From positions 1 to 50,489 of the forward strand of contig JAOUEV010000021.1 of assembly GCA_029858565.1 (NCBI GenBank): a DNA stretch of 50,489 bases, written 5' to 3'. The translations under genes and the position numbers were made by a program. The DNA comes from Nitrospirota bacterium. GTDB taxonomy: Bacteria > Nitrospirota > UBA9217. Below, one piece after another: positions 38,096 to 50,489 of this stretch (within the stretch, counting starts at the first letter, position 1; every line of letters begins with the position of its first letter). The notes beneath the pieces were generated by a model, which saw only the letters and a program-made list of their open reading frames with translations, was not told where the DNA came from and made no database searches.

Positions 38096-39283
38096 ATGGC
38101 AATCACGTCGATCAAGACCGTTGCAGTGACCGGCAACCAGGCGGTTGCCGAGGCCTTCCGCCAGCTGAATCCCGATGTCATGCCGGCGTACCCCATTACC
38201 CCGTCAACGGGCATCATGGAGTCGTTCACCTCCTTTGTTTCGAACGGCAAGGTGGACACCGAAATGATCCTGGTGGAAAGCGAGCACAGTGCCATGAGCG
38301 CCGGGATCGGCGCGTCAGCCGCAGGCGGCCGCGTGGCAACGGCGACCTCCGCCCAGGGCCTGGCCCTTATGTGGGAAATGCTGCACATCGCTTCTGGCTA
38401 CCGGCTTCCGATCCTGATGGCGCTGGTGAACCGGGCGCTGTCCGCGCCGCTCAACATCCACGGCGATCACTCCGACGGCATGGGCATGCGCGACTGCGGT
38501 TGGATCCAGCTCTTCTGCGAGAACGCCCAGGAAGCCTACGACAACACCATCATGGCCTACCGGATCGCCGAGCACAAGGATGTGCGGCTCCCGATCGCGG
38601 TGAACATGGACGGATTCATCATCAGCCACTCCATCGAGAGCATGCAGTATATCACTGACGAGGACGTGAAGAAGTTCGTGGGCGAGTACATCCCCATGAA
38701 TCCGTTGCTCGACATCGACAACCCCAAGAGCATCGGCGCCCTGGTGCTGACGGACTACTACATGGAACACAAGCGCGCCCAGCACGAGGCTATGTTGAAC
38801 GTGAAGAAGGTGGTGCAGGACGTATCCGCGGAGTTCGCCAAGCTGACCGGCAGGAAATATGACCTCTTCGAGACCTATCGGCTGGAAGACGCCGATGTGG
38901 CCATCGTGGCGCTCAACTCCGCTGCGGGCACGATCAAGGACGAGATCGACCGCTACCGCGAAAAGGGCGTCAAGGTCGGGCTCCTGAAGCCCCGCATGTT
39001 CCGCCCCTTCCCCTACGAGGAAGTGGGCGCCGCGCTCAAGAACGCCAAGGCCATCTGCGTGATGGACCGGGCGGACTCCTACGGCGGGTACGGGCCGCTG
39101 TTCATGGAGATTGCCTCGGCACTGGCCCCCAGCAAGGGACCGGTGCTGTTCAACAAGATCTACGGCCTGGGCGGCAGGGACCTCATGCCTTCGCATGTTG
39201 ACGAAGTGATCGAGGAGACCGCAGAGGTCGCCAAGACCGGCAAGGTCAGGATGCTGAAAGATTACATGACGGTGAGGAGTTAA
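38096..39283 (+). CDS. porA: Pyruvate/2-oxoacid:ferredoxin oxidoreductase alpha subunit
   Basis: YPITP, ESEHSA, TATSAQGL, NRALSAP, FRPFP, GLGGRD. Confidence 0.9.
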   Translation: MAITSIKTVAVTGNQAVAEAFRQLNPDVMPAYPITPSTGIMESFTSFVSNGKVDTEMILVESEHSAMSAGIGASAAGGRVATATSAQGLALMWEMLHIASGYRLPILMALVNRALSAPLNIHGDHSDGMGMRDCGWIQLFCENAQEAYDNTIMAYRIAEHKDVRLPIAVNMDGFIISHSIESMQYITDEDVKKFVGEYIPMNPLLDIDNPKSIGALVLTDYYMEHKRAQHEAMLNVKKVVQDVSAEFAKLTGRKYDLFETYRLEDADVAIVALNSAAGTIKDEIDRYREKGVKVGLLKPRMFRPFPYEEVGAALKNAKAICVMDRADSYGGYGPLFMEIASALAPSKGPVLFNKIYGLGGRDLMPSHVDEVIEETAEVAKTGKVRMLKDYMTVRS

Positions 39284-39285
39284 TC

Positions 39286-40242
39286 ATGACCACGACCCAG
39301 GAAAAACCAATGACCCTGAAATCACTGTCCCATAAAAAGGACAACCTCTCCGGCGGACATCGCATGTGCTCCGGCTGCGGCGCGCCGACCGTTGTGCGGC
39401 AGGTGCTGCTGGCGATCGATGAGCCGGTGGTCATCGCGAACGCGACAGGCTGCCTTGAGGTCTCGACCTGCCTCTTTCCCTATACCGCCTGGCAGCTGCC
39501 CTGGATGCACAGCGCATTCGAGAACGCAGCTGCGACCGCGTCGGGCATTGAAACGATGTACCGGGCGCTTCGGAAAAAGGGCAAGATCAGCAAGGACATC
39601 AAGTTCATCGCCTTCGGCGGCGACGGCGGCACCTACGATATCGGATTCCAGGCCCTTTCCGGCGCCATGGAGCGCGGCCACCAGCTGCTCTATATCTGCT
39701 ACGACAACGGCGCGTACATGAACACGGGCATCCAGCGTTCGAGCGCAACGCCTTTCGGAGCCGATACCACGACCCAGCCGGTCGGGTCCAAGGTCCCGGG
39801 CAAGACCGTGCGTCGCAAGGACCTCACCCGCATCATGGCGGCCCATAACGTGGCATATGCTGCCCAGGCATCGCCGCACAACTGGAAGGACCTGATGACC
39901 AAGGTGAAGAAAGCCCTTGCCACGAACGGTCCCGCATACATGGGCATCATGGCGCCGTGCAACCGGGGCTGGCGCACCCAGACGAACGACTCCATCCTGC
40001 TGTCACGTCTTTCCGTGGAAACGTGCTATTGGCCGCTCTATGAGGTCGAGGGCGGCAAGTGGACCATCAACTACGACCCCAAGGACAAGAAGAAGCCGGT
40101 GACGGAGTTCCTGAAGCCCCAGGGCAGGTTCAAGCACCTCTTTGCCCCCGGAAATGAGCATTTGCTCGAACGTTTCCAGAATACCGTGGACGGTGACTGG
40201 GAGAGCCTTCAGAAGCTGGCGGCAACATTCGGAACCAAATAA
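39286..40242 (+). CDS. porB: Pyruvate/2-oxoacid:ferredoxin oxidoreductase beta subunit
   Basis: GHRMCSGCG, ATGC, GGDGG, YDNGAYMNTGIQRS (TPP binding). Confidence 0.9.
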   Translation: MTTTQEKPMTLKSLSHKKDNLSGGHRMCSGCGAPTVVRQVLLAIDEPVVIANATGCLEVSTCLFPYTAWQLPWMHSAFENAAATASGIETMYRALRKKGKISKDIKFIAFGGDGGTYDIGFQALSGAMERGHQLLYICYDNGAYMNTGIQRSSATPFGADTTTQPVGSKVPGKTVRRKDLTRIMAAHNVAYAAQASPHNWKDLMTKVKKALATNGPAYMGIMAPCNRGWRTQTNDSILLSRLSVETCYWPLYEVEGGKWTINYDPKDKKKPVTEFLKPQGRFKHLFAPGNEHLLERFQNTVDGDWESLQKLAATFGTK

Positions 40243-40304: not shown

Positions 40305-40410
40305 CAGACCGCAGTGGTCCGAAAAACCCCTTGAAATTTCAGGGACAATGTGGTTAAATGAGTAGCTATCAGGAGTGCGTCCGTTCAACGGCAGCGAGGA
40401 GAGAAATCAT

Positions 40411-40905
40411 ATGATCGGCTCCGATCTGGTGATGTATGAAGAGGAGTTCAAGCTCATAGATGCTGAGCTTCAGCGGCTGCTTGCCCAGTCCAATGCGAAG
40501 GTCGTGTTCCTTGTGGATAAGAACGGCCAGCTGATCGCTGCGACCGGCGAGACCGAGAACCTCGACACCACATCGCTCGCCTCACTCACAGCCGGCAACA
40601 TCGCGGCAACGGGCGGCATGGCGAAGCTCCTTGGTGAAAAGGAATTCTCGATCCTGTTCCACGAAGGACAGCGGGACAATATCCACATTTCCATTATAAG
40701 CCAGCGGGTCATCCTGGTAGTGATCTTTGACCAGCGTTCGTCCCTTGGCCTTGTCCGGCTACGGGTCAAGAAGAGCGCAGAGCTGCTTTCGGGCATCTTC
40801 AATCAGCTGTTGCAGAAGGTCGAAACCGGCAAGGGCGCAGCCAAGGGCGCTGATTCGCCGTTCGCGGAAATTACCGACGAAGACATTGATAAGCTCTTCG
40901 GATAA
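40411..40905 (+). CDS. mglB: Roadblock/LC7 GTPase-activating protein MglB
   Basis: LVMYEEEF, LASLTAGNIAATGG, SSLGLVRLR, PFAEITDEDIDKLF; ATG 40411 with AGGAG SD. Confidence 0.93.
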   Translation: MIGSDLVMYEEEFKLIDAELQRLLAQSNAKVVFLVDKNGQLIAATGETENLDTTSLASLTAGNIAATGGMAKLLGEKEFSILFHEGQRDNIHISIISQRVILVVIFDQRSSLGLVRLRVKKSAELLSGIFNQLLQKVETGKGAAKGADSPFAEITDEDIDKLFG

Positions 40906-40936
40906 CGCAGCCTGCTAAGGAAAGGGACTCGGATCC

Positions 40937-41533
40937 ATGTCGTTTATCAATTACTCGTCGAGAGAGATCAACTGCAAGATCGTGTACTATGGTCCCGGTC
41001 TGTGCGGCAAGACGACCAATCTCCATTACATTTACAAGAAGACGAATCCCGACAGCAAGGGAAAGATGATTTCCCTTGCCACCGAGACCGAGCGTACGCT
41101 GTTCTTCGATTTTCTTCCCCTGGCGCTCGGTGAGATACGCGGCTTCAAAACGCGCTTCCATCTGTACACCGTGCCCGGTCAGGTCTTCTACGATGCGAGC
41201 CGGAAACTCATCCTGAAGGGCGTCGACGGCGTGGTATTCGTGGCGGACTCGCAGGTCGAGCGCATGGAAGCGAACGTGGAAAGCGTTGAGAACCTTCGCA
41301 TCAACCTTTCCGAACAGGGATACGATCTCGACAAGGTGCCCTACGTGGTCCAGTACAACAAGCGGGACCTTCCGAACGTTGTTCCGGTTGCTGAGATGCG
41401 TGCTGCTCTCAATCCCAAGGGCGTGCCTGATTTCGAAGCCGTGGCATCCGAAGGCGGCGGCGTTTTCGATACCCTCAAGGCGATCGCCAAGCAGGTCATC
41501 ATGGAACTGAAGAAGGGACAGGAAGGCGGATAA
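40937..41533 (+). CDS. mglA: Small Ras-like GTPase MglA
   Basis: [45 protein letters not shown]. Confidence 0.96.
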
Positions 41534-41685: not shown

Positions 41686-41761
41686 TCCCGGATAGCTCAG
41701 TCGGTAGAGCGGGTGGCTGTTAACCACCATGTCGCAGGTTCGAGTCCTGCTCCGGGAGCCA
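41686..41761 (+). tRNA. tRNA-Asn(GTT)
   Basis: TCCCGGA...GCCA, anticodon loop CT-GTT-AA, 76 nt. Confidence 0.96.
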
Positions 41762-41856: not shown

Positions 41857-41885
41857 TTGACATGGTGTGTCATAAGTGTTACACT
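41857..41885 (+). promoter_or_regulatory. Toxin-antitoxin promoter with overlapping operator palindrome
   Basis: TTGACA-17-TACACT; palindrome AGTGT-T-ACACT overlaps the -10. Confidence 0.65.
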
Positions 41886-41906
41886 AATTGCATGGAGGTA
41901 AAGAAC

Positions 41907-42131
41907 ATGCCTGTAAAAAATCCGCGGATAAACGTTGTACTGGAAAAACCGTTATACAGCACGATCGAACGTCTTGCATCGCGAGACGGGGTTTCTCTGT
42001 CTCTCAAGGTTCGGGACCTGGTGAAAGAGGCGATCGAAATGGAAGAGGATGTTGCGCTTGGGGCGTTTGCATCCAAGAGGGAAAAGACGTTCACGAAAGC
42101 GAAATCCCTGAAGCATGACGAGGTCTGGTGA
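41907..42131 (+). CDS. Ribbon-helix-helix antitoxin
   Basis: PRINVVLE...LASRDGVSLSLKVRDLV, acidic tail HDEVW; GGAGG SD before ATG 41907. Confidence 0.8.
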   Translation: MPVKNPRINVVLEKPLYSTIERLASRDGVSLSLKVRDLVKEAIEMEEDVALGAFASKREKTFTKAKSLKHDEVW

Positions 42132-42409
42132 TTGTGTCCTTCGAGCGAAGATACCACCCAGAGATCAAGTCAGCGGATATTCCTCTGCTTGATGCGAAAA
42201 TAAAAGAGCGCATCAAGAAAGCCATTGAAACGCGACTTACTACGGAGCCGCAGCTCTATGGTGCGCCCTTGCGGAAAACACTCCATGGTTATTGGAAGCT
42301 TCGCGTCGGGGATTATCGGGTGGTCTTCAAAATAGCCGGAAACGAAGTATGGATTCTCGGGATCATTCATCGAAAGAAAGTCTACGACGCTATCGAGAAG
42401 AGATTGTAG
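42128..42409 (+). CDS. RelE/ParE-family toxin
   Basis: GAPLRKTLHGYWKLRVGDYRVVF...IIHRKKVY; GTGA overlap with antitoxin. Confidence 0.88.
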   Translation: MIVSFERRYHPEIKSADIPLLDAKIKERIKKAIETRLTTEPQLYGAPLRKTLHGYWKLRVGDYRVVFKIAGNEVWILGIIHRKKVYDAIEKRL

Positions 42410-42459: not shown

Positions 42460-43821
42460 CTAATCCGCAGCCAATCCGAATTTTTTCAGCTTTCTCCAGA
42501 GCGACACACGGTCAATTCCCAGGATCTGTGAGGCCAATGTCCTGTTCCCGGCGACCTCGTTCAGCACCCATCGTATGTAGGCGAGCTCCTGCTCCTCCAG
42601 CGAGGGGATTCGTCCCTCTTTCTTGCGGAATGTCTTGATGTTCAGTTCCTTCAGGTCATCGGGAAGATGACCGAGCTCCACGGTCTTGCTGTTCGAGAGC
42701 GCGACCCCGCGCTCCACGATATTCTCCAGCTCCCGGACGTTGCCGGGGAAGTCATAGTTCATGAGCAGGCTGATCACGTCCTCGTTGATCTCGGTGACCG
42801 GCCTCTTCATGAGCGTAGCGTACTTCCTGAGGAAATAATAGGAGAGCAGGGGGATATCATCCTTGCGCTCGGCCAGCGGCGGGATGCGGAGCGATACAAC
42901 GTTCAGCCGGAAGTACAGGTCCTGGCGGAAAGCGCCGCTCTTAACGGTCTCCTGGATGTCCCGGTTCGTCGCGGCGACGAATCGCACATTGACCTTTACG
43001 GCCTCGGTGCCGCCAAGGCGCAGGATCTCCCGCTCCTGGATGACCCGGAGAAGCTTCACCTGCATGGAGGTCGGCATCTCGGTTATCTCATCAAGGAACA
43101 GCGTGCCTTCCGACGCCATCTCGATCAGGCCCTTTTTCGCGACAGCAGCGCCGGTAAATGCGCCTTTCTCATGGCCGAACAGCTCATTGGTCAGCAATTC
43201 CTCGTTAAAGGCGCCGCAGTTGATGGCGAAAAAAGGCCCTGCGGCGCGGCGGCTGTGGAGGTGGATGAACCGGGCGAACAACTCTTTGCCTGTCCCGCTC
43301 TCTCCGGAGATCAGCACATTCGTGTCTACCGGCGCAACTTGTCGCGCCACATCGAGCAGCCTTTGCATCCCCGGGTCCTGCGTGATGATCTTTACCTTGC
43401 CCTGGTAGGACTCGAGCTGTTCGCGCAGGTTGCGGTTCTCCTTCTTCAGGGCTACTTTGTGAACTGCTTCGGCGACCACCTTGCGGACATCATCAAGCTT
43501 GAAGGGCTTGGCAATATAATAGAAAGCGCCGTGCTTCATCGCCTCGACCGCCGACTCCAGCGTGGCAAAGCCCGTGATCATGATGACTTCGGTGTCCGGA
43601 TGGGCATCGCGGCATCGCTTGAGGACCTGGAATCCATCCACCTTTTCCATTTTCAGGTCGGTCAATACCACGTCGAAGGACATTTCTTCAAGCAGATTGA
43701 TCGCGTTCTGACCGCTCTGGGTCGCCGTGACCTCGTATCCTTCTTTCTTCATGACGTGTTCGAGATTCTTGAGCGCCACTCGCTCATCGTCGACAATGAG
43801 TATCTTAGCGTGAGTATTCAT
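42460..43821 (-). CDS. Sigma54-dependent response regulator (NtrC family)
   Basis: REC domain (IVDDE, LTDLKM, KP), GESGTGKE, GAFTGA, FLDE, PGNVREL, Fis-type HTH. Confidence 0.95.
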   Translation of the reverse strand: MNTHAKILIVDDERVALKNLEHVMKKEGYEVTATQSGQNAINLLEEMSFDVVLTDLKMEKVDGFQVLKRCRDAHPDTEVIMITGFATLESAVEAMKHGAFYYIAKPFKLDDVRKVVAEAVHKVALKKENRNLREQLESYQGKVKIITQDPGMQRLLDVARQVAPVDTNVLISGESGTGKELFARFIHLHSRRAAGPFFAINCGAFNEELLTNELFGHEKGAFTGAAVAKKGLIEMASEGTLFLDEITEMPTSMQVKLLRVIQEREILRLGGTEAVKVNVRFVAATNRDIQETVKSGAFRQDLYFRLNVVSLRIPPLAERKDDIPLLSYYFLRKYATLMKRPVTEINEDVISLLMNYDFPGNVRELENIVERGVALSNSKTVELGHLPDDLKELNIKTFRKKEGRIPSLEEQELAYIRWVLNEVAGNRTLASQILGIDRVSLWRKLKKFGLAAD

Positions 43822-43833
43822 TTCAATCCCTTC

Positions 43834-45339
43834 TCACTTCATCGGAAGCCTGATGAGGAACACCGTGCCCTTGCCTGCTTCGCTGTCCACGGCGATGCAC
43901 CCGTCGTGCTCATCGATGATCTCATGGACAATGAACAAACCAAGGCCCGATCCCCGACCAACGTCCTTGGTCGTGAAGAAGGGATCAAAAACCTTGGTAA
44001 GGATGTCCTCAGGGATGCCGCTGCCGGTATCGCGCACTTCGATATCCACCGTGTCATCCTCGAGCGTGCACTTGCCGTGATATTTGAGATAGTTGTAGAT
44101 ACCGCCGTCGTCTCCTACCTTGTCAATAGCGCGGTGAAAGCGGGCCGCGATTGTGATGGTCCCTTCCCCGGGGATCGCCTCGGCCGCGTTCTTCAGCAGG
44201 TTCAGGAAGACCTGCTGGATCCGCTGTTTGTCCGCGAGTATCTCTACATCTTCGGCGATATTGACCTGGATGGAGGCTTTCGCGGGTATCTGTCCCTTGA
44301 TGAAGCGGATGGTCTCGTTGATCAGTCCGCGGAGCGGGATCCGCTGTTTCTTGAACTCCCTGTCCCGGGAGAATTCGAGCAGCGAGCGGACGATGTTCCG
44401 CGCACGGTCGGTCTGCTCGTTGATCTGGTCGACCAGCTCCCGTTTGAATGCCGGATCCGCGCTGTCAAGCTCTTCCGCCAGGATCTGGCCTGACGAGGAT
44501 ATGTTGGAAAGAGGGTTGTTCAGCTCATGGGCCACTCCCGAGAGAAGCGTTCCCAGGGAAGCGAGCTTCTCCGACTGTACCAGGTGGCGCTGGCGGAGCT
44601 CAAGCTCGCGCAGCATCTTGTTGAAAGCGCGGGTCAGGGAAAGCACCTCGCGGTCCCGGGAATCGATCGGGATGTTCTCGAAGGTGCCTTCAGCGATCAC
44701 TTCCATGTTCCGCTCCATCAGCTTCAGCGGTTTCACGACCATGCGTTCAAGCACCTGGCCGATCACGATGACCAGTGCGATCAGGACCAGCAGGGAGATG
44801 AGCAGGAATCGCTGCGAGGCGGCAAGCAGCGCCTGGATGCTCGACCGTTCGTTCCGGGAGATCTCTTCGGCCACGGTCACGATATCCTTGCCGGTCTTGC
44901 GGATCTTTCCCTCCAGCCGGACCTTGAGCGCCTGATCCTCCGGCGTAGGTTTGGTTCGCTGACGGCGGATGAGCTTCTCGTACCGGTCCATCAGCTCCTG
45001 ATACTGGCGGAGGTCCTTGCGGAGCAAAACGATGACCTCGGGCGAGGCGAGGGCCGCGAAGCCGGCGCGACTGACGTCGAGGATCTCACCGGCCCGGAGG
45101 GCATAGCGCAGGTTTTCCGCGTAGTCCGACCGCTGCTCAAAGAGGAAATAATTCTTCTCGAACCGCCGGATCTCCAGGGTGGTATCGAAGAACTCGGAGA
45201 TCGTCTCGCCGACCATGATCTTCTTTTCAAGATAGCGAAGCTCCAGGAACGTGAAGGCCGAGAGACCGATGATCATGAGCACCACGGCGTAGTAACCAAG
45301 GCGGATCTTCTGGCGGATGCTGTGCTGGTATTTGATCAT
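43834..45339 (-). CDS. Membrane sensor histidine kinase (2 TM, HAMP, HisKA, HATPase)
   Basis: SEKLASLG..GVAHELNNPL, NLLKNA, DTGSGI, FFTTK, GSGLGL; ATGA overlap with the Lon stop. Confidence 0.93.
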   Translation of the reverse strand: MIKYQHSIRQKIRLGYYAVVLMIIGLSAFTFLELRYLEKKIMVGETISEFFDTTLEIRRFEKNYFLFEQRSDYAENLRYALRAGEILDVSRAGFAALASPEVIVLLRKDLRQYQELMDRYEKLIRRQRTKPTPEDQALKVRLEGKIRKTGKDIVTVAEEISRNERSSIQALLAASQRFLLISLLVLIALVIVIGQVLERMVVKPLKLMERNMEVIAEGTFENIPIDSRDREVLSLTRAFNKMLRELELRQRHLVQSEKLASLGTLLSGVAHELNNPLSNISSSGQILAEELDSADPAFKRELVDQINEQTDRARNIVRSLLEFSRDREFKKQRIPLRGLINETIRFIKGQIPAKASIQVNIAEDVEILADKQRIQQVFLNLLKNAAEAIPGEGTITIAARFHRAIDKVGDDGGIYNYLKYHGKCTLEDDTVDIEVRDTGSGIPEDILTKVFDPFFTTKDVGRGSGLGLFIVHEIIDEHDGCIAVDSEAGKGTVFLIRLPMK

Positions 45340-47339
45340 TGCTGCACCAGGACCTGCGGAACGATCTCGGCGACCGTGTCGGCCAGGATGATCGTAATGT
45401 CCGACCGGACGGCGGCGGGAAGCTCGTCCACGTCGCTCCTGTTCTTGAGCGGCAGCACGATGGTGCGGACCCCGGCCCGTCGGGCGGCAAGCACTTTTTC
45501 CCGCACACCTGCAACCGGCAGCAGTCTGCCGGTGAGCGTGATCTCGCCGGAAAGGGCGACATCCCTGCGGGCCGGACGGCTGGTCAGGAGCGACAGGATC
45601 GCGACCGCGATCGTGATGCCCGCCGAGGGTCCGTCCTTCTGGATAGCGCCGGAGGGAACATGAATATGGATGTCCTGGTTCTCGAAGAAGTCCTCGGGGA
45701 TGGCAAAGGTCCGGGCGTTGCTCCTGATATAGGAAAGGGCTGCCTGGGCCGATTCGCGCATCACGTCGCCGAGCGATCCCGTGATGATCAGCTCCTTCTT
45801 CCCTTTCATGGCAACCGCTTCGACAAAGATGATATCGCCTCCGGCTTCGGTCCGGACAAGACCGGTCGCGACGCCGATCCGGTCCGTTTCCTCGACAACG
45901 TCAACGTGATATTTCTTCCTGCCCAGGAACCGCTCAAGCTCCGCCGGCGTGACGGTCACGGATTTTCGGCCGCCGGAGCCGAGCGACTCCTTTGCGAGCT
46001 TTCTGCAGACCATGGCGATCTGGCGCTCCAGGCCGCGTATGCCGGCCTCCCGGGTGTGTTCCCGGATGACGTGCTCCAGGGCTGCCTGGGTAAAGACGAC
46101 CTGGTCCGGTGACAGGCCTTTTTCACGGACCTGTTTCGGCACCAGGAACCGCGAAGCGATCTCGAGCTTATCCTCGAGCGCGTATCCGGAGAACTCGATG
46201 ACCTCCATGCGGTCGCGCAGCGGACCGGGCATGGCCTCAACGACATTCGCCGTGACAATGAACATCACGCCGGACAGGTCAAAGGGAACATCGAGGTAAT
46301 GGTCAGTGAAGGCCCGGTTCTGCTCCGGGTCCAGGACCTCCAGCAGGGCCGACGCCGGGTCTCCCTTGAAGTCCGAACCGATCTTGTCCAGCTCATCGAG
46401 CATCAGAACGGGATTCGCAGAACCCACCCGCCGGATCTCTTCAATGATCCTGCCGGGCCGCGCGCCGGTGTATGTCCGGCGATGGCCGCGGATGTCCGCT
46501 TCGTCCTTCACCCCGCCCAGGGAGATGCGGGCGAAGTTCCTTCCCAGGGCAAGCGCTATGGACCTGCCAAGAGAGGTCTTTCCCGTGCCCGGAGGCCCGG
46601 CAAAGCAGAGCACGGTGCCTCGCGAGCCCGTTGCGAGCGATCGTTTTTCAAGGGCTTGCCGGACGGTTTCGCGCACTTCATCGAGCTTATAGGGCTTGGT
46701 GATGTAATGGAAGGCTCCCCGCTTCATCGCATCGATCGCTGACTGGACCGTGGCGAATCCGGTAACAATGATCACCCGGGTCTCGGGAAAGCGCTTCTTC
46801 ACCGATTCAAGAAGGTCCATGCCGCTTACCGGGCCCATGCGCAGGTCCGTCAGGACAACGTCGAACTCACCGGTCTCGAGAGCCTGGAGCCCTGATTCCG
46901 CGTCAGCGGCGGTTACGACCTCATAGTGCTCCCTGGTCAGGATATGAGAAAGGTTCTTTCGAGCGATCTCCTCATCGTCAATGACAAGGATGCGCGCCTG
47001 CCTGTTCATCCGCAGCACCTTGACCGCGAGGTGCTCCAGCACGCGCTCCTTGATCAGCTCGAGACCGAAATGGTGTTCATTCAGCACGCGCTCTGCGCGA
47101 ACGATGTCAAGGTTGTCCTCGGTGCGGTGGTTCCAGGGAAGGGAGAGCAGGTAGTCGATGTAGGTGAGGCCGATGGAGAACTCGGCGGACGACGGTCCGA
47201 TCTTCGACAGGACCTCGAGCTCCTGTACGGCAACAGGAGCGACCACAGGGGGCAGATGGGCATTTTCGATCCTCTGGCGCAGCTCTGCGAGGACCTGATC
47301 CTGTTCCTTGTCGGTATTTTTTTTATTAAAGAATCCCAT
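45336..47339 (-). CDS. LonA-family ATP-dependent protease lacking the N-domain, with inserted receiver (REC) domain
   Basis: LSLPW, HFGLELIKERVLEHLAV, REC (ILVIDDEE, VVLTDLRM, VTG, ITKP), GPPGTGKT, LDELDK, KDGPSAG, REKVLAA. ATG 47339. Confidence 0.9.
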   Translation of the reverse strand: MGFFNKKNTDKEQDQVLAELRQRIENAHLPPVVAPVAVQELEVLSKIGPSSAEFSIGLTYIDYLLSLPWNHRTEDNLDIVRAERVLNEHHFGLELIKERVLEHLAVKVLRMNRQARILVIDDEEIARKNLSHILTREHYEVVTAADAESGLQALETGEFDVVLTDLRMGPVSGMDLLESVKKRFPETRVIIVTGFATVQSAIDAMKRGAFHYITKPYKLDEVRETVRQALEKRSLATGSRGTVLCFAGPPGTGKTSLGRSIALALGRNFARISLGGVKDEADIRGHRRTYTGARPGRIIEEIRRVGSANPVLMLDELDKIGSDFKGDPASALLEVLDPEQNRAFTDHYLDVPFDLSGVMFIVTANVVEAMPGPLRDRMEVIEFSGYALEDKLEIASRFLVPKQVREKGLSPDQVVFTQAALEHVIREHTREAGIRGLERQIAMVCRKLAKESLGSGGRKSVTVTPAELERFLGRKKYHVDVVEETDRIGVATGLVRTEAGGDIIFVEAVAMKGKKELIITGSLGDVMRESAQAALSYIRSNARTFAIPEDFFENQDIHIHVPSGAIQKDGPSAGITIAVAILSLLTSRPARRDVALSGEITLTGRLLPVAGVREKVLAARRAGVRTIVLPLKNRSDVDELPAAVRSDITIILADTVAEIVPQVLVQQ

Positions 47340-47562
47340 GTCCAATGATCCAGGAAAACCGGTTTTCGCGCGAAGCCGCAAAGCCGCTAAAAAAGATTAA
47401 AGGAACAAGCCGTAGCAGCGGAAAAACAAGGAACATGTTCTGAGTACTGTATCCATTCATCTTAGCGAAGGGTCTGCCCAAGACATTTGTCCTGTTTTTC
47501 TTTGCGGCTTTGGGCGAGACAGAAAATGAATTTAGATAGCACTTAACAACGACCCGGCATCA

Positions 47563-47663
47563 GTTGCATTTTACAACGCCTAGCTGGTAAGTGCAACAGC
47601 GATTATTTCTCAATTTAACAATATGTTACATGATTCATTATAAAGACCATTGCATTTGTAAAC
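47563..47663. promoter_or_regulatory. Putative enhancer (UAS) sites and IHF-like site
   Basis: GTTGCATTTTACAAC (47563), GCTGGTAAGTGCAAC (47583), ATTGCATTTGTAAAC (47649); TAACAATATGTTA (47616). Confidence 0.5.
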
Positions 47664-47740
47664 AACACTGTCCGATTACTGTACCGGATACTGAACCTAT
47701 TACTTCTTAATATACAACACGTTCCGCATAAAGGGAACTT

Positions 47741-47756
47741 TGGCACGATGGTTGTA
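47741..47756 (+). promoter_or_regulatory. Sigma54 (-24/-12) promoter
   Basis: TGGCACG-ATGG-TTGTA versus consensus TGGCACG-N4-TTGCW; GT instead of GC at -12. Confidence 0.7.
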
Positions 47757-47795
47757 ATAGTAATAATAGAAAAACAATGAAAGGAGGGTTGACCT

Positions 47796-47966
47796 ATGAA
47801 GACCCTGTTAAAGAAAATGGAGACGATGTTCGCAGCATCAGCATTTGCCGAGGCCGGAGAACATGAGACCGCGCGCCAGATCCTGAAGGACGCTGAGCAG
47901 CGGAAGAACGATCGTCCGTCGCTTCAGGCGCGTCCATCCACCAGGCCGTCGCTGCGGGCGAACTAG
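47796..47966 (+). CDS. Small protein (56 aa) with FAEAGE motif
   Basis: Below ORF-track cutoff. AGGAGG SD; MKTLLKKMETMFAASAFAEAGEHETARQILKDAEQRKNDRPSLQARPSTRPSLRAN. Confidence 0.75.
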   Translation: MKTLLKKMETMFAASAFAEAGEHETARQILKDAEQRKNDRPSLQARPSTRPSLRAN

Positions 47967-47987
47967 AGCGCTGGAGCAGGTCGAACC

Positions 47988-48485
47988 ATGGACAGCCAGA
48001 AGCTCAAGAAGATCATGAAGCAGATCGAGGATTCCCTCGCAGCGGTCTCCTTTGCCGAGGAAGGCCAGCAGGAGACGGCGGCTACCCTGTTCCGGAGGGA
48101 GCGGAGACTGCTCGTCGCGGTGCGGGAAGGACATGTCGATCCAAAGACCCTGAAGTACGGCCTGAATACCGCTGTCAGGATCGGATCGCAGGTCGACATC
48201 CTCTATGTCACCGCCGAGGGCGGCGGCCACACGCGGATCGACAAGGACCTCGAGGAGTTCGATCGCGAACTTTCGGCAGCTGCCATTCCTCATCGCCTGG
48301 TCAGGAAGAGCGGCTGTCTGAAGCAGCAGATCATCGACTACACGAACAAGGAGCATGAGGTGCTCTTCGTGGTTGTCGAATCCCCCCGCAGTCTGGATGC
48401 GGACTGCTCGGGCAAGGACACCGCGCTGACAGAGTTGTGGAAAAAGCTGCGGTGTCCGCTTGTGGTGGTGTCTGAAGCGCAGTAA
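47988..48485 (+). CDS. USP-like protein with N-terminal FAEEG motif
   Basis: SLAAVSFAEEGQQETA, then RLLVAV, VDILYV and CPLVVV as in the USP fold. Confidence 0.7.
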   Translation: MDSQKLKKIMKQIEDSLAAVSFAEEGQQETAATLFRRERRLLVAVREGHVDPKTLKYGLNTAVRIGSQVDILYVTAEGGGHTRIDKDLEEFDRELSAAAIPHRLVRKSGCLKQQIIDYTNKEHEVLFVVVESPRSLDADCSGKDTALTELWKKLRCPLVVVSEAQ

Positions 48486-48572
48486 GCCAAGCAGCAAGCA
48501 CTAAGCGATAAGCATAATCCTGTAAAAAGACTTTGAGCAGGTTCATTACATTCTCTTTAAGGAGGCATTATC

Positions 48573-48824
48573 ATGGCAGCAACAAGCAGCAAGAAAAAAC
48601 CGGTCACCGCGCTGGTGATCACCGGTATCGTGTCGATCGTGATGTACGGTCTGCTCCTGACCAAGCAGGAACTGATCAACAGCACCTTCGGCAAGGGCGG
48701 ATGGTTCGCATTCCTTCCGATCGTGACGGCATTCCTGTTCTCCTTCGTGCACGGAGCGTTCACCGGCCACTTCTGGACCGTGCTCGGCATCGAAGCGGCA
48801 AAAAAGAAGAAGGAGGTAAAGTAA
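48573..48824 (+). CDS. Small two-TM membrane protein
   Basis: AGGAGG SD, two hydrophobic helices, FSFVHGAFTGHFW. Confidence 0.75.
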   Translation: MAATSSKKKPVTALVITGIVSIVMYGLLLTKQELINSTFGKGGWFAFLPIVTAFLFSFVHGAFTGHFWTVLGIEAAKKKKEVK

Positions 48825-48825
48825 G

Positions 48826-49908
48826 ATGCACGATATTGCGACGAATTTCATCAATCTTGATCTCATCACCATGCTGTACCTCTTCGGTGTCGGTTTCGTT
48901 GGCGGCCTGGTCTCCGGTTTCATCGGTTCGGGCGGCGCTTTTGTGCTTACCCCGGGCATGATGAGCCTGGGCGTTCCCGGTCTCATGGCAGTTGCGAGCA
49001 ATATGTGCCACAAGTTCCCCAAGGCGCTGGTCGGCGCGGTGAAGCGCGCCAAGTACGGCCAGGTGGACGTGAAGCTCGGGATCATTCTCGGCATCTCGGC
49101 TGAAGCGGGTGTGCTCTACGGCGCGCATATCCAGGAGAGCATCAAGAAGGCCTTTGGCGATGCCGGTTCTAACCTTTATGTCAGCGCCGCGTTCGTGGTG
49201 ATCCTTGCCACTGTGGGCGGGTTCGTTCTGCGCGACGCATGGAAGACCCATAAGTCCGGAACCGCACATGAAGAGGAAAAGGCAGGCAAGCTGGCCAAAT
49301 GGGTGCAGTCCATCAACATTCCCGGCACTATGGTCTACTTCAAGAGCCTGAACGCCAAGGTCTCGGTGCTCTTTACCATCCCCCTCGGGTTCGCAACCGG
49401 CATGCTGGCCGCGACGATCGCCGTGGGCGGATTCGTGGGCGTTCCGTCCATGATCTATGTTCTCGGCGCGCCGAGCATCATGGCGTCGGCAACAGAGCTG
49501 GTGATCGCCTTTGTGATGGGCGTGGGCGGATCGTTCAAGTACGCGCTTTCGGGCCTGGTGGACATCAGGCTGGCCATGCTGATCCTCGCGGGCTCGCTCT
49601 TCGGCGTTCAGCTTGGCGCGATCGGCACGACCTACGTGAAACCCTTCATGATCAAGATGGTGATGGGGGTGATCATGGTGATCGTGCTCTTCAGCCGTGC
49701 GCTCATGATCCCGGTCTATATGTCCCAGCTCGGCTTGATGGACAAGATGGGCGACATGACCGTGAAGGTGCTGAAGAACACCAGTTTTGCTATAATGATC
49801 GCAGCACTGGCGATCGGAGCGTTCATCATCATTAAGGCCTTTGTGGAAGGCCGCAGGGAAGAGAAGCTCCGCCTGGCGTCAGAAGCGCTGGAACATGGGA
49901 AAATATAA
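48826..49908 (+). CDS. TauE/SafE (TSUP) family membrane transporter
   Basis: GFVGGLVSGFIGSGGAFVLTP repeated as AVGGFVGVPSM; GSLFGVQLG. Confidence 0.85.
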   Translation: MHDIATNFINLDLITMLYLFGVGFVGGLVSGFIGSGGAFVLTPGMMSLGVPGLMAVASNMCHKFPKALVGAVKRAKYGQVDVKLGIILGISAEAGVLYGAHIQESIKKAFGDAGSNLYVSAAFVVILATVGGFVLRDAWKTHKSGTAHEEEKAGKLAKWVQSINIPGTMVYFKSLNAKVSVLFTIPLGFATGMLAATIAVGGFVGVPSMIYVLGAPSIMASATELVIAFVMGVGGSFKYALSGLVDIRLAMLILAGSLFGVQLGAIGTTYVKPFMIKMVMGVIMVIVLFSRALMIPVYMSQLGLMDKMGDMTVKVLKNTSFAIMIAALAIGAFIIIKAFVEGRREEKLRLASEALEHGKI

Positions 49909-50489
49909 GAAAATCCTTATAGCTGTCGATGGTTCTGAATCAAGCCGGAACGCGCTCCTGCAGGCGTTCCGGCTTGCTGTTGAAGAAAAGTGCTGGATCA
50001 CGGTCACGTCGGTCGTCCCGCCGGTCACCGGCGACCTGGACCTTACCGGCGTGTCGGACGTTCGCGCTTCCCTTGCCAAACCCTGCGAAGATGCCCTGAC
50101 CGAAGCACGCAGTCTCGCCGAGCAGGAGTGCATCCTGATCAAGACAGTGCGCGAGGAAGGCGAGACCTATGAGCGGATCGTGGACCTGGCAGATGCCGAG
50201 AACGCGGACATCATCGTCATGGGACGCAGGGGACTGCGCAGAATGGCGCGCGTTCTGGTCGGCAGTGTGACCGCGCGGGTGATCGGCCACACGCAGCGTG
50301 ATGTTCTTGTGGTCCCCGCGGGCTCGATCCTGGGCTGGAAGAAGATCGTGGTTGCCACGGACGGATCCCGGTTCAGCGCGAAGGCGACGGACAAGGCCAT
50401 CAGCTTTGCCCAGGCCTACGGCGGATCGCTCGCGGTCCTGTCGGTGGTCGATGTGCCGCCGGAGCTGTATGCCGAGGCGCCGCAGGCGG
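49895..50489 (+). CDS. Tandem-domain universal stress protein, runs off window
   Basis: Not in ORF track. MGKYKKILIAVDGSESS...IIVMGRRG...LVGSVTARV...VLVVP, second domain KIVVATDGS. Confidence 0.88.
   Translation, partial: MGKYKKILIAVDGSESSRNALLQAFRLAVEEKCWITVTSVVPPVTGDLDLTGVSDVRASLAKPCEDALTEARSLAEQECILIKTVREEGETYERIVDLADAENADIIVMGRRGLRRMARVLVGSVTARVIGHTQRDVLVVPAGSILGWKKIVVATDGSRFSAKATDKAISFAQAYGGSLAVLSVVDVPPELYAEAPQA

What the first reader, a model, noticed from the sequence alone, without database searches (positions are those of the whole stretch)
42460..50489. Branched signalling module: one kinase, two receivers, and a divergent sigma54 operon
Seen: REC-Lon, kinase and NtrC-type activator form one operon (ATGA overlap, 12-nt gap). 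It diverges from an operon with a -24/-12 promoter encoding two FAE(A/E)G-motif proteins, a small membrane protein, a TauE/TSUP transporter and a tandem USP. Inference: the single kinase controls both transcription of the transporter/USP operon and regulated proteolysis, possibly of that operon's products or of the activator. This would be a coupled induce-and-degrade circuit, perhaps for a sulfur-oxyanion or related stress.
Basis: partly seen in the sequence, partly recalled or inferred. Interest (0 to 1): 0.82.

Follow-up and report, generated by a model that had tools for sequence, protein, structure and literature searches.

The report
Receiver-fused Lon stress-signalling gene cluster
This is a Nitrospirota copy of a stress-signalling gene cluster already described in Desulfovibrio, in which one sensor kinase probably drives both a sigma-54 activator of a transporter/stress-protein operon and a Lon protease that carries its own receiver domain.

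Summary
On the minus strand lie REC-Lon, a kinase and a sigma-54 activator, with an ATGA overlap and a 12-nt gap. They diverge from an operon of two FAE(A/E)G proteins, a small membrane protein, TauE and a tandem USP, behind a -24/-12 promoter.

The idea is not new. Rajeev 2011 (PMC3333781) described the same layout in Desulfovibrio vulgaris (DVU3303-3305 and DVU3302-3298). They called it a three-component system, gave DAP-chip targets and noted orthologs in Thermodesulfovibrio. Trotter 2023 (PMC10102598) reported cofitness above 0.9 and a chlorate phenotype. This scan also found it before on other DNA (e1-4569770).

Added here:
- Linkage is conserved in 49 REC-Lon loci from two phyla and absent from 32 ordinary Lon loci.
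- The promoter is conserved, with two GTTGCA-N3-TGCAAC-like enhancer sites near -180 and -92.
- The two receivers are reciprocal best paralogs, and all catalytic residues are invariant.
- The FAEAGE unit is an unannotated TPR-like repeat.
- The 56-aa protein with a conserved basic tail is REC-Lon's most frequent neighbour.

Phosphotransfer, Lon substrates and the inducing signal remain untested. Interest is low to moderate: this is a new member of a known kind.

The parts
42460..43821 (-). NtrC-type sigma-54 enhancer-binding response regulator (REC, AAA+ with GAFTGA, HTH_8)
   Evidence: Pfam (Sigma54_activat 7.7e-70, Response_reg 1.5e-30, HTH_8 4.6e-10). GAFTGA read in the translation.
43834..45339 (-). 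Membrane histidine kinase: two hydrophobic segments flank a ~140-aa region with no family, then HAMP, HisKA and HATPase_c
   Evidence: Pfam. No family for residues 1-200 at E<=10. The transmembrane segments were read by eye.
45336..47339 (-). REC-Lon: helical N-region, then a receiver domain, then the LonA AAA+ module and S16 protease domain; no LAN domain
   Evidence: TIGR00763 717 bits, cut-off 608. (invariant D122, D165, T193, K215, Walker A/B, S572, K615 in 44 sequences). (AF2 model, pLDDT 78.7)..
47563..47577 (.). Putative enhancer site 1, GTTGCATTTTACAAC, 178 nt upstream of the -24 element
   Evidence: a site within 3 mismatches lies at -167 to -180 in 13 of 15 orthologous intergenic regions. 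Palindromic GTTGCA-N3-TGCAAC versions occur in Desulfobacterota loci.
47649..47663 (.). Putative enhancer site 2, ATTGCATTTGTAAAC (degenerate; left half-site kept), 92 nt upstream of the -24 element
   Evidence: Read. A site at -80 to -92 within 3 mismatches occurs in 9 of 15 regions. The window's own copy has 4 mismatches.
47741..47756 (+). Sigma-54 type -24/-12 promoter, TGGCACGATGGTTGTA
   Evidence: A TGGCA[CT]-N5-[TCG]TG[TCA] element lies 52-85 nt before the first gene in 15 of 15 orthologous regions. rpoN is present in the genome.
47796..47966 (+). sp1: 56-aa protein with one FAEAGE (TPR-like) hairpin and a basic tail ending in a conserved R-x-x-LRA(D/E/N)
   Evidence: A1, 31 sequences. 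Weak TPR_14 hit, E 0.032, below cut-off. No Pfam or NCBIfam family.
47988..48485 (+). sp2: 165-aa protein with an FAEEG hairpin and a divergent USP-like alpha/beta domain
   Evidence: A3. (model pLDDT 74.8). (best PDB match USP TeaD 3hgm, E 5.7e-7; 49 matches at E<=1e-3, mostly USPs)..
48573..48824 (+). 83-aa small membrane protein that travels with TauE
   Evidence: Homolog next to TauE in 27 of 49 REC-Lon loci. No family.
48826..49908 (+). TauE/TSUP family anion permease
   Evidence: Pfam PF01925, E 3.4e-34.
49898..50489 (+). Tandem universal stress protein, cut by the contig end
   Evidence: Pfam Usp, E 4e-40, two stretches. The window is the whole contig.

Best explanation
This is the Nitrospirota counterpart of the Desulfovibrio vulgaris DVU3303-3305 / DVU3302-3298 'three-component' stress module.

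The membrane kinase senses an unknown, probably extracytoplasmic, cue and phosphorylates two paralogous NtrC1-like receivers.

(1) The sigma-54 activator binds two GTTGCA-N3-TGCAAC-like sites about 180 and 92 nt upstream of a conserved -24/-12 promoter. From there it drives the operon sp1-sp2-small membrane protein-TauE-USP. I put this at about 0.85; it is inferred from conservation and from published DAP-chip data in D. vulgaris.

(2) REC-Lon is a LonA that has lost its substrate-binding N-domain and carries the receiver right in front of the AAA+ ring. Its ATP-dependent proteolysis is switched by phosphorylation of D165, by analogy with receiver control of AAA+ assembly in NtrC1-type activators. 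I put this at about 0.6; it is inferred.

The substrate is unknown. My preferred candidate is sp1, the 56-aa FAEAGE-hairpin protein with a conserved basic tail. Under this reading the circuit induces a small regulator and also controls its removal, as with CpxP/DegP. I put this at about 0.2. The USP-type proteins most likely modulate the anion permease, as TeaD does for TeaABC (inference).
For: Domains and gene order.

Linkage (tblastn, >=60% coverage for all parts except sp1, which was scored with the profile HMM), in 49 REC-Lon loci including the window:
- kinase 37 of 49
- activator 36 of 49
- TauE 28 of 49
- small membrane protein 27 of 49
- USP 23 of 49
- sp1 33 of 49
In 32 ordinary Lon loci the counts are 0-1 of 32. 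With >=5 kb on both flanks: kinase 22 of 26, activator 22 of 26, TauE 16 of 26.

Promoter: conserved in 15 of 15 regions. Enhancer site 1: 13 of 15, at fixed spacing. The same dyad pair occurs in Desulfobacterota loci L028, L036, L037, L042 and L021. rpoN is present.

Receivers: they are reciprocal best hits among 70-80 REC hits in the genome (128-129 bits; the next best are 122 and 116). REC-Lon's receiver is closest to the NtrC1 receiver among solved structures (1zy2, E 2.3e-22).

Catalytic residues: phospho-acceptor, Walker A/B and the Ser-Lys dyad are invariant in 44 of 44 sequences.

sp1: it lies within 1 kb of REC-Lon in 28 of 49 loci and is the nearest scored neighbour in 20 of 49. In L014, L016 and L017 it sits directly upstream of REC-Lon on the same strand. 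In L035, L044 and L045 it stays beside REC-Lon although TauE and USP are absent. Only the sp1 beside REC-Lon has the basic tail; the FAEAGE protein of the REC-Lon-less cassette on C86 lacks it.

Literature (passages read): PMC3333781 reports DAP-chip targets, autoregulation, expression correlation and induction by pH, heat and stationary phase. PMC4641369 lists the regulon in a table. PMC10102598 reports cofitness above 0.9.
Against: - No phosphotransfer, proteolysis or expression data exist for this organism.
- The margin of the reciprocal best hit is small (128 against 122 bits).
- In-locus REC pairs are only slightly more alike than cross-locus pairs (0.505-0.520 against 0.487-0.500), and not at all in helix alpha-1, the classic specificity region (0.513 against 0.514).
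- REC-Lon has no kinase or activator within 10 kb in L013 and L025.
- FAEAGE proteins also head two paralogous kinase-activator-TauE-USP cassettes in this genome that have no REC-Lon. The hairpin itself is therefore not a REC-Lon-specific tag.
- sp1 was not found in 16 of 49 REC-Lon loci.
- In D. vulgaris, mutants of the three signalling genes gain fitness in chlorate while the transporter mutant loses it (PMC10102598). That is not what simple activation predicts.
- Their cofitness could be a polar effect if Lon is first in the operon, as it is here.
- Sequence orthology to DVU3303-3305 could not be tested, because the tools hold no D. vulgaris sequence.
Confidence: 0.6

Rival explanations
1. 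Negative feedback or induce-and-degrade. Phosphorylated REC-Lon degrades the activator or the operon's own products (the transporter or its USP partners), limiting or resetting the response.
For: The same genomic linkage applies. It could explain the D. vulgaris sign paradox (PMC10102598, passage read). If Lon removes the DVU3299 transporter or a helper, losing Lon, the kinase or the autoregulating activator would stabilise it and raise chlorate tolerance, while losing DVU3299 lowers it.
Against: No substrate data exist. Lon normally acts on soluble proteins, while TauE is polytopic. In L035, L044 and L045 REC-Lon keeps sp1 and the kinase/activator but has no TauE or USP, so those cannot be the universal substrates.
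Confidence: 0.2
2. Stress-activated bulk protease. Phosphorylation simply turns on an extra Lon for general protein quality control during stress, which is the suggestion of Rajeev et al. 2011.
For: [quoted passage not shown]
Against: The LAN domain, which I recall LonA using to recognise damaged proteins, is missing. The genome already has two other Lon genes. Tight conserved linkage to one operon and to sp1 argues for a dedicated role.
Confidence: 0.13
It would be an orphan receiver, a phosphate sink, or a target of acetyl phosphate or another kinase, and the clustering reflects co-regulation only.
For: REC-Lon has no kinase or activator within 10 kb in L013 and L025. The kinase-activator pair lies 3-9 kb away or on the other strand in many Desulfobacterota loci. 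There is no in-locus excess of similarity in alpha-1.
Against: The kinase is within 1 kb in 20 of 49 loci and translationally coupled here. The receivers are reciprocal best hits. Cofitness above 0.9 is reported in D. vulgaris (PMC10102598).
Confidence: 0.07

Closest known systems
D. vulgaris Hildenborough DVU3303 (REC-Lon) / DVU3304 (kinase) / DVU3305 (sigma-54 regulator) with target operon DVU3302-3298 (Rajeev 2011 PMC3333781; Kazakov 2015 PMC4641369; Trotter 2023 PMC10102598)
   Same: The three signalling genes match. So does the divergent five-gene operon of hypothetical proteins, a membrane protein, an anion transporter and UspA-type proteins, and the sigma-54 promoter. The authors themselves list orthologs in Thermodesulfovibrio (Nitrospirota) with a conserved binding site. 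A Desulfovibrionaceae locus (L042) shows the same five genes beside REC-Lon.
   Different: The organism differs (an uncultured Nitrospirota genome). The activator has GAFTGA here, against GAFSGA listed for DVU3305. Direct sequence comparison and comparison of my dyad with their motif were not possible, because the motif is in a figure and in supplements that are closed.
RssB-ClpXP and CpdR-ClpXP (response regulators that steer proteolysis; recalled, plus NCBIfam names seen)
   Same: A receiver domain couples a phosphorelay to regulated ATP-dependent proteolysis.
   Different: There the receiver is a separate adaptor for ClpXP. Here it is fused in cis into a Lon polypeptide just before the AAA+ ring.
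NtrC1/DctD-type activators (solved receivers 1zy2, 1ny5)
   Same: The receiver of REC-Lon is most similar to the NtrC1 receiver and sits directly N-terminal to an AAA+ module. Phosphorylation-controlled ring assembly or gating is therefore the natural model.
   Different: The output is a protease, not sigma-54 remodelling. The linker is short (about 7 residues, low pLDDT). Nothing has been tested.
CpxP/DegP feedback on CpxAR (recalled)
   Same: A small protein is encoded divergently from the two-component genes, induced by them, and removed by a protease to tune signalling. This is the logic I propose for sp1.
   Different: CpxP is periplasmic and DegP is not under phospho-control. No homology exists. 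This is an analogy only.
USP TeaD of the TeaABC transporter operon (PDB 3hgm)
   Same: It is the best structural match of sp2's C-terminal domain. It is a USP encoded with a transporter and, as I recall, it regulates that transporter.
   Different: Identity is 19%. sp2 carries an extra N-terminal FAEAGE hairpin and, by eye, lacks the G-2x-G-9x-G(S/T) nucleotide motif that the tandem USP has.

Membership tests
DVU3303-3305 / DVU3298-3302 type three-component stress module | Adjacent genes for a receiver-fused Lon, a histidine kinase and a sigma-54 response regulator | tested here: met
DVU3303-3305 / DVU3298-3302 type three-component stress module | Neighbouring target operon with hypothetical proteins, a membrane protein, an anion transporter and UspA-type proteins behind a sigma-54 promoter | tested here: met
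   L042 (Fundidesulfovibrio) has the same five genes.
DVU3303-3305 / DVU3298-3302 type three-component stress module | The published DVU3305 binding motif lies upstream of the target operon | tested here: inconclusive
   A conserved dyad pair was found. The published motif is only in Figure 8 and Tables S7/S9 of PMC3333781, which could not be seen.
DVU3303-3305 / DVU3298-3302 type three-component stress module | Sequence orthology to the D. vulgaris proteins | not testable with these tools
   No D. vulgaris Hildenborough sequence is held. The REC-Lon of Desulfovibrionaceae loci L038-L042 is 50-52% identical.
LonA (endopeptidase La, MEROPS S16) | AAA+ module with Walker A/B, and a Ser-Lys protease domain | tested here: met
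   TIGR00763 at 717 bits, above the 608 cut-off. Lon_C 2.6e-81. G248-T255, D315/E316, S572 and K615 are invariant.
LonA (endopeptidase La, MEROPS S16) | N-terminal LAN (PUA-like) substrate-binding domain | tested here: not met
   No PF02190 hit. Only ~112 helical residues precede the REC. Ordinary Lon ORFs in two control loci are 826-847 aa.
Response regulator receiver (both REC domains) | Acidic pocket, phospho-acceptor Asp, conserved Thr and Lys | tested here: met
   D122, D165, T193 and K215 are invariant in 44 REC-Lon sequences. The same positions are seen in the activator rows of the alignment.
NtrC-type bacterial enhancer-binding protein | REC, sigma-54 interaction AAA+ domain with a GAFTGA loop, and a Fis-type HTH | tested here: met
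   GAFTGA read.
TSUP / TauE permease | Match to PF01925 above the gathering score | tested here: met
   119 bits against a 32.6 cut-off. The substrate is not inferable.
Universal stress protein, nucleotide-binding type | Usp fold, and the G-2x-G-9x-G(S/T) motif (motif recalled from memory) | tested here: met
   Usp E 4e-40. GRRGLRRMARVLVGS read in the translation. The second domain is cut by the contig end.
TPR repeat (for the FAEAGE hairpin) | Match to a TPR model above its cut-off | tested here: not met
   TPR_14 E 0.032, 15.3 bits against a 23.5 cut-off. It resembles TPR and occurs as tandem repeats, but it is not filed in that family.

The most novel reading that the evidence does not exclude
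sp1 is the dedicated partner of the receiver-gated Lon. In this reading it is a feedback regulator induced from the sigma-54 promoter and destroyed through its conserved basic tail, ending in R-x-x-LRA(D/E/N), when REC-Lon is phosphorylated. The FAEAGE unit would then be a new TPR-like repeat that docks such regulators and USP-like domains onto this family of kinase/activator/anion-transporter cassettes.
Probability: 0.17. Interest if true: 0.6.

Novelty: new member of a known kind. Interest (0 to 1): 0.3.

Why it matters
A receiver domain built into a Lon protease would be a direct wire from a two-component kinase to ATP-dependent proteolysis. That link normally needs separate adaptors such as RssB or CpdR. 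The module is common in sulfate- and sulfite-reducing lineages (Nitrospirota, Desulfobacterota) and has stress and chlorate phenotypes in D. vulgaris. Even so, no one has shown phosphotransfer, a substrate or the signal.

This work narrows the search. It gives a conserved enhancer/promoter layout, shows invariant catalytic sites, and names one candidate substrate, sp1. It also shows that the FAEAGE-hairpin/USP/anion-permease cassette recurs three times in one genome, and only one copy has the protease. The basic idea is already in print, so the finding is confirmatory rather than surprising.

Tried and rejected
1. Complex prediction of sp1 with REC-Lon: no answer (score 0.00, mark 0.32). This is neither support nor evidence against.

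2. 'The FAEAGE hairpin is a REC-Lon-specific tag': rejected. The same hairpin heads two REC-Lon-less cassettes in this genome, and the family has 1660 representatives, many with 2-5 tandem repeats.

3. 'L048-L080 are short REC-less Lons': rejected. Two loci checked of 32 hold 826-847-aa ORFs, so they are ordinary LonA. They served as control loci.

4. Co-variation of the two receivers: a small whole-domain excess, none in alpha-1. This is not convincing evidence of co-evolution.

5. Genome-wide search for further enhancer sites: 3 hits at <=2 mismatches to the Nitrospirota form. There were 6 sites against 3 control sites for the palindrome at <=1 mismatch. The motif is too unspecific to call a regulon, and I did not follow it up.

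6. The single enhancer match and the promoter match are not significant within the window alone. Their weight comes from conservation.

7. No sigma-54 element was seen by eye facing REC-Lon in the shared intergenic region. The sigma-70-like matches are weak consensus hits only.

8. Literature for the motif strings FAEAG/FAEEG: 26 papers hold a string. The 10 listed were unrelated; the other 16 were not seen.

9. A 2008 survey of serine-protease architectures (PMC2605481) has no occurrence of 'response regulator' or 'receiver'.

10. Pfam and NCBIfam give no family for sp1, sp2, the small membrane protein or the kinase's N-terminal 200 residues.
Full report
**What is there.**

The minus strand holds three genes.
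- A 667-aa Lon at 45336..47339. Its receiver domain (Pfam Response_reg, 1.1e-27) lies between a ~112-residue helical N-region and the AAA+ module.
- A 501-aa membrane kinase at 43834..45339 (HAMP, HisKA, HATPase_c).
- A 453-aa NtrC-type activator at 42460..43821 (REC, Sigma54_activat 7.7e-70, HTH_8, GAFTGA).

The Lon stop and the kinase start overlap as ATGA. Twelve bases holding a GAAGGGA ribosome-binding site separate kinase and activator.

Five genes run divergently.
- sp1: 56 aa, FAEAGE motif.
- sp2: 165 aa, FAEEG motif.
- An 83-aa membrane protein.
- A TauE/TSUP permease (E 3.4e-34).
- A tandem USP (E 4e-40), cut because the window is the whole contig C39.

TGGCACGATGGTTGT lies 55 nt before sp1.
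- The REC is inserted, not N-terminal.
- The Lon lacks the LAN domain (no PF02190 hit).
- The -12 element is TTGT.

**It is already in print.**

Rajeev et al. [quoted passage not shown]
- DVU3305 is the sigma-54 regulator and DVU3304 the kinase. [quoted passage not shown] - The two operons correlate in expression and rise at high pH, heat and stationary phase.
- The authors propose that DVU3303 needs phosphorylation to be protease-active.
- They state that orthologs with a conserved binding site exist in Thermodesulfovibrio yellowstonii.

Kazakov et al. 2015 (PMC4641369; one table passage) list the regulon. Trotter et al. 2023 (PMC10102598; one passage) report pairwise cofitness above 0.9 for DVU3303-3305. 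Those three genes are detrimental in chlorate, whereas the target 'putative anion transporter' DVU3299 is important in chlorate.

An earlier report of this scan on another genome (e1-4569770) reached the same placement. I saw it only after my own tests.

**Conserved linkage.**

A scan of one genome per species returned 80 loci. Of 599 pattern matches, 573 were relatives and the best 80 were kept.
- Forty-eight loci carry the receiver-containing Lon. They are labelled Nitrospirota/Thermodesulfovibrionia (60-76% identity) and Desulfobacterota (49-59%).
- Thirty-two carry ordinary Lon. Two of them were checked and hold 826-847-aa ORFs.

tblastn at >=60% coverage gave these counts in the 48 REC-Lon loci:

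| Component | Loci with it |
|---|---|
| kinase | 36 of 48 |
| activator | 35 of 48 |
| TauE | 27 of 48 |
| small membrane protein | 26 of 48 |
| USP | 22 of 48 |
| sp1 | 27 of 48 |
| sp2 | 21 of 48 |

In the 32 ordinary Lon loci the counts are 0-1 of 32. With at least 5 kb on both flanks: kinase 22 of 26, activator 22 of 26, TauE 16 of 26.

The layout varies between loci.
- L014, L016 and L017 have sp1, REC-Lon, sp2, membrane protein, TauE and USP on one strand, with kinase-activator divergent.
- Desulfobacteraceae loci such as L044 keep sp1, an FAEAGE/USP-like protein, kinase and activator. Instead of TauE they carry a CitMHS/Na_sulph_symp-type anion permease.
- L013 and L025 have no kinase or activator within 10 kb.

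The 120 best database relatives of the REC-AAA+ junction all carry PF00072. Of these, 117 also carry Lon_C; the other three are 424-475-aa fragments.

**Promoter and enhancer.**

In 15 orthologous intergenic regions (REC-Lon divergent from sp1, including the window):
- A TGGCA[CT]-N5-[TCG]TG[TCA] element lies 52-85 nt before sp1 in 15 of 15.
- A 15-mer within 3 mismatches of GTTGCATTTTACAAC lies 167-180 nt upstream of it in 13 of 15.
- A second site lies 80-92 nt upstream in 9 of 15.

The window's second site (47649-47663) keeps only the left half.

I then examined 15 further loci upstream of the small membrane protein gene. Eight had GTTGCA-N3-TGCAAC-type dyads, and five of those (L028, L036, L037, L042, L021) had a pair 45-92 nt apart. 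Ten had a promoter-like element. rpoN is present in the genome.

Within the window alone these matches are not significant. The case rests on conservation across two phyla. I could not compare the dyad with the published DVU3305 motif, which is in a figure and in closed supplements.

**One kinase, two receivers?**

In favour:
- The two receivers are 49% identical and are each other's best hits among 70-80 receiver hits in the 3.9-Mb genome. The scores are 128-129 bits, with the next best at 122 and 116.
- Among solved structures, REC-Lon's receiver is closest to the NtrC1 receiver.
- In 44 REC-Lon sequences the receiver's D122, D165, T193 and K215, Walker A and B, and the protease S572 and K615 are all invariant. 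Both the switch and the enzyme are therefore under selection.

Weaker or against:
- A test for in-locus co-variation gave only a small excess over the whole domain (0.505-0.520 against 0.487-0.500; 0-1 of 5000 permutations reached it). There was none in helix alpha-1.
- The AF2 model (pLDDT 78.7) puts a short, low-confidence linker between receiver helix 5 and the first AAA+ strand.

I infer phosphorylation-gated assembly or pore access by analogy with NtrC1-type activators. Nothing here tests it.

**The FAEAGE proteins.**

sp1, sp2 and the membrane protein have no Pfam or NCBIfam family. sp1 gives only a sub-threshold TPR_14 hit.
- sp2 is a hairpin plus a USP-like domain. The model has pLDDT 74.8, and its best PDB match is the transporter-linked USP TeaD (3hgm, E 5.7e-7). 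There are 49 matches at E<=1e-3, mostly USPs (Atlas).
- The FAE[AE]G string occurs 57 times in the 48 REC-Lon loci and 0 times in the 32 controls. Three of the 57 are spurious.
- A profile of sp1 finds 1660 cluster representatives at E<=1e-3, and 300 at <=1e-10. Many have 2-5 tandem hairpins or a C-terminal USP-like domain. The unit is an unannotated TPR-like repeat.

The hairpin is not specific to REC-Lon. This genome has two more kinase-activator-FAEAGE-TauE-USP cassettes, on C86 and C137, without a Lon. One of them has a near-identical promoter, TGGCACGCATGTTGTAATAGTAAT.

What does track REC-Lon is the sp1 form: one hairpin plus a basic tail ending R-x-x-LRA(D/E/N).
- It is present in 33 of 49 loci.
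- It lies within 1 kb in 28 of 49.
- It is the nearest scored neighbour in 20 of 49.
- The tail is absent from the C86 paralog.

That makes sp1 my preferred, but weakly supported, candidate for a REC-Lon substrate or partner.

**Reading the D. vulgaris genetics.**

Equal phenotypes of the Lon, kinase and regulator mutants fit a Lon that acts in the same direction as the activator. One way would be removal of an inhibitor. If Lon is first in the operon, as here, polar effects could give the same result.

The signs are also opposite. Signalling mutants gain fitness in chlorate and the transporter mutant loses it. I therefore keep that version as the main rival.

**Verdict.**

The feature is real and the genes clearly belong together. 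The cluster is a new member of a known, published kind.

What this work adds:
- The enhancer/promoter layout.
- Invariant catalytic sites.
- Loss of the LAN domain.
- Triplication of the cassette, with one copy carrying the protease.
- The TPR-like repeat.
- sp1 as the candidate partner.

These additions are incremental.

**Surroundings (not part of the module).**

Downstream of the activator lie a ParE/RHH toxin-antitoxin pair, tRNA-Asn, a Roadblock/small-GTPase pair and 2-oxoacid:ferredoxin oxidoreductase subunits.

Noticed in passing
window 41862-42409 (+): A ribbon-helix-helix antitoxin-like ORF (weak RHH_5/DUF6290 hits, below cut-off) overlaps a ParE-family toxin ORF (PF05016, 6.4e-10). 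The pair sits directly between the tRNA and the end of the activator gene.
   Followed up: no
window 41686-41761 (+): tRNA-Asn (GTT). With the toxin-antitoxin pair beside it, this marks the downstream boundary of the signalling cluster.
   Followed up: partly
window 40375-41533 (+): A Roadblock/LC7 protein followed by a small Ras/Arf-like GTPase. This is an MglB/MglA-like pair.
   Followed up: no
window 38096-40242 (+): Alpha and beta subunits of a 2-oxoacid:ferredoxin oxidoreductase (POR_N, PFOR_II, TPP_enzyme_C).
   Followed up: no
L084 (G000:C86:7500-19500) and L085 (G000:C137:13500-23088): Two paralogous cassettes in the same genome hold kinase, sigma-54 activator, FAEAGE protein, TauE and tandem USP but no REC-Lon. 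C86 also has a GntR/UTRA regulator and a second activator-like gene; C137 has an Alph_Pro_TM protein. The C86 promoter is almost identical to the window's.
   Followed up: partly
L044:2243-9531: In a Desulfobacteraceae locus the cassette beside REC-Lon carries a CitMHS/Na_sulph_symp-type permease with TrkA_C domains and a cytidylate-kinase-like protein in place of TauE and USP.
   Followed up: partly
L014:4464-9637, L016, L017: A variant order puts sp1, REC-Lon, sp2, membrane protein, TauE and USP on one strand, with kinase-activator divergent. Here the protease is embedded in the target operon rather than in the kinase operon.
   Followed up: partly
proteins P0124-P0273: The FAEAGE hairpin is a widespread unannotated repeat with 1660 representatives. 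It often occurs as 2-5 tandem copies with basic linkers, or fused to a USP-like domain. One hit (P0249, 514 aa) is a long TPR-like repeat protein.
   Followed up: partly
G000: C29:10652, C71:6680, C86:20485, C126:18476, C141:20842: Five further near-palindromic GTTGCA-N3-TGCAAC sites occur in the genome, against three for a control pattern. The neighbouring genes were not examined.
   Followed up: no
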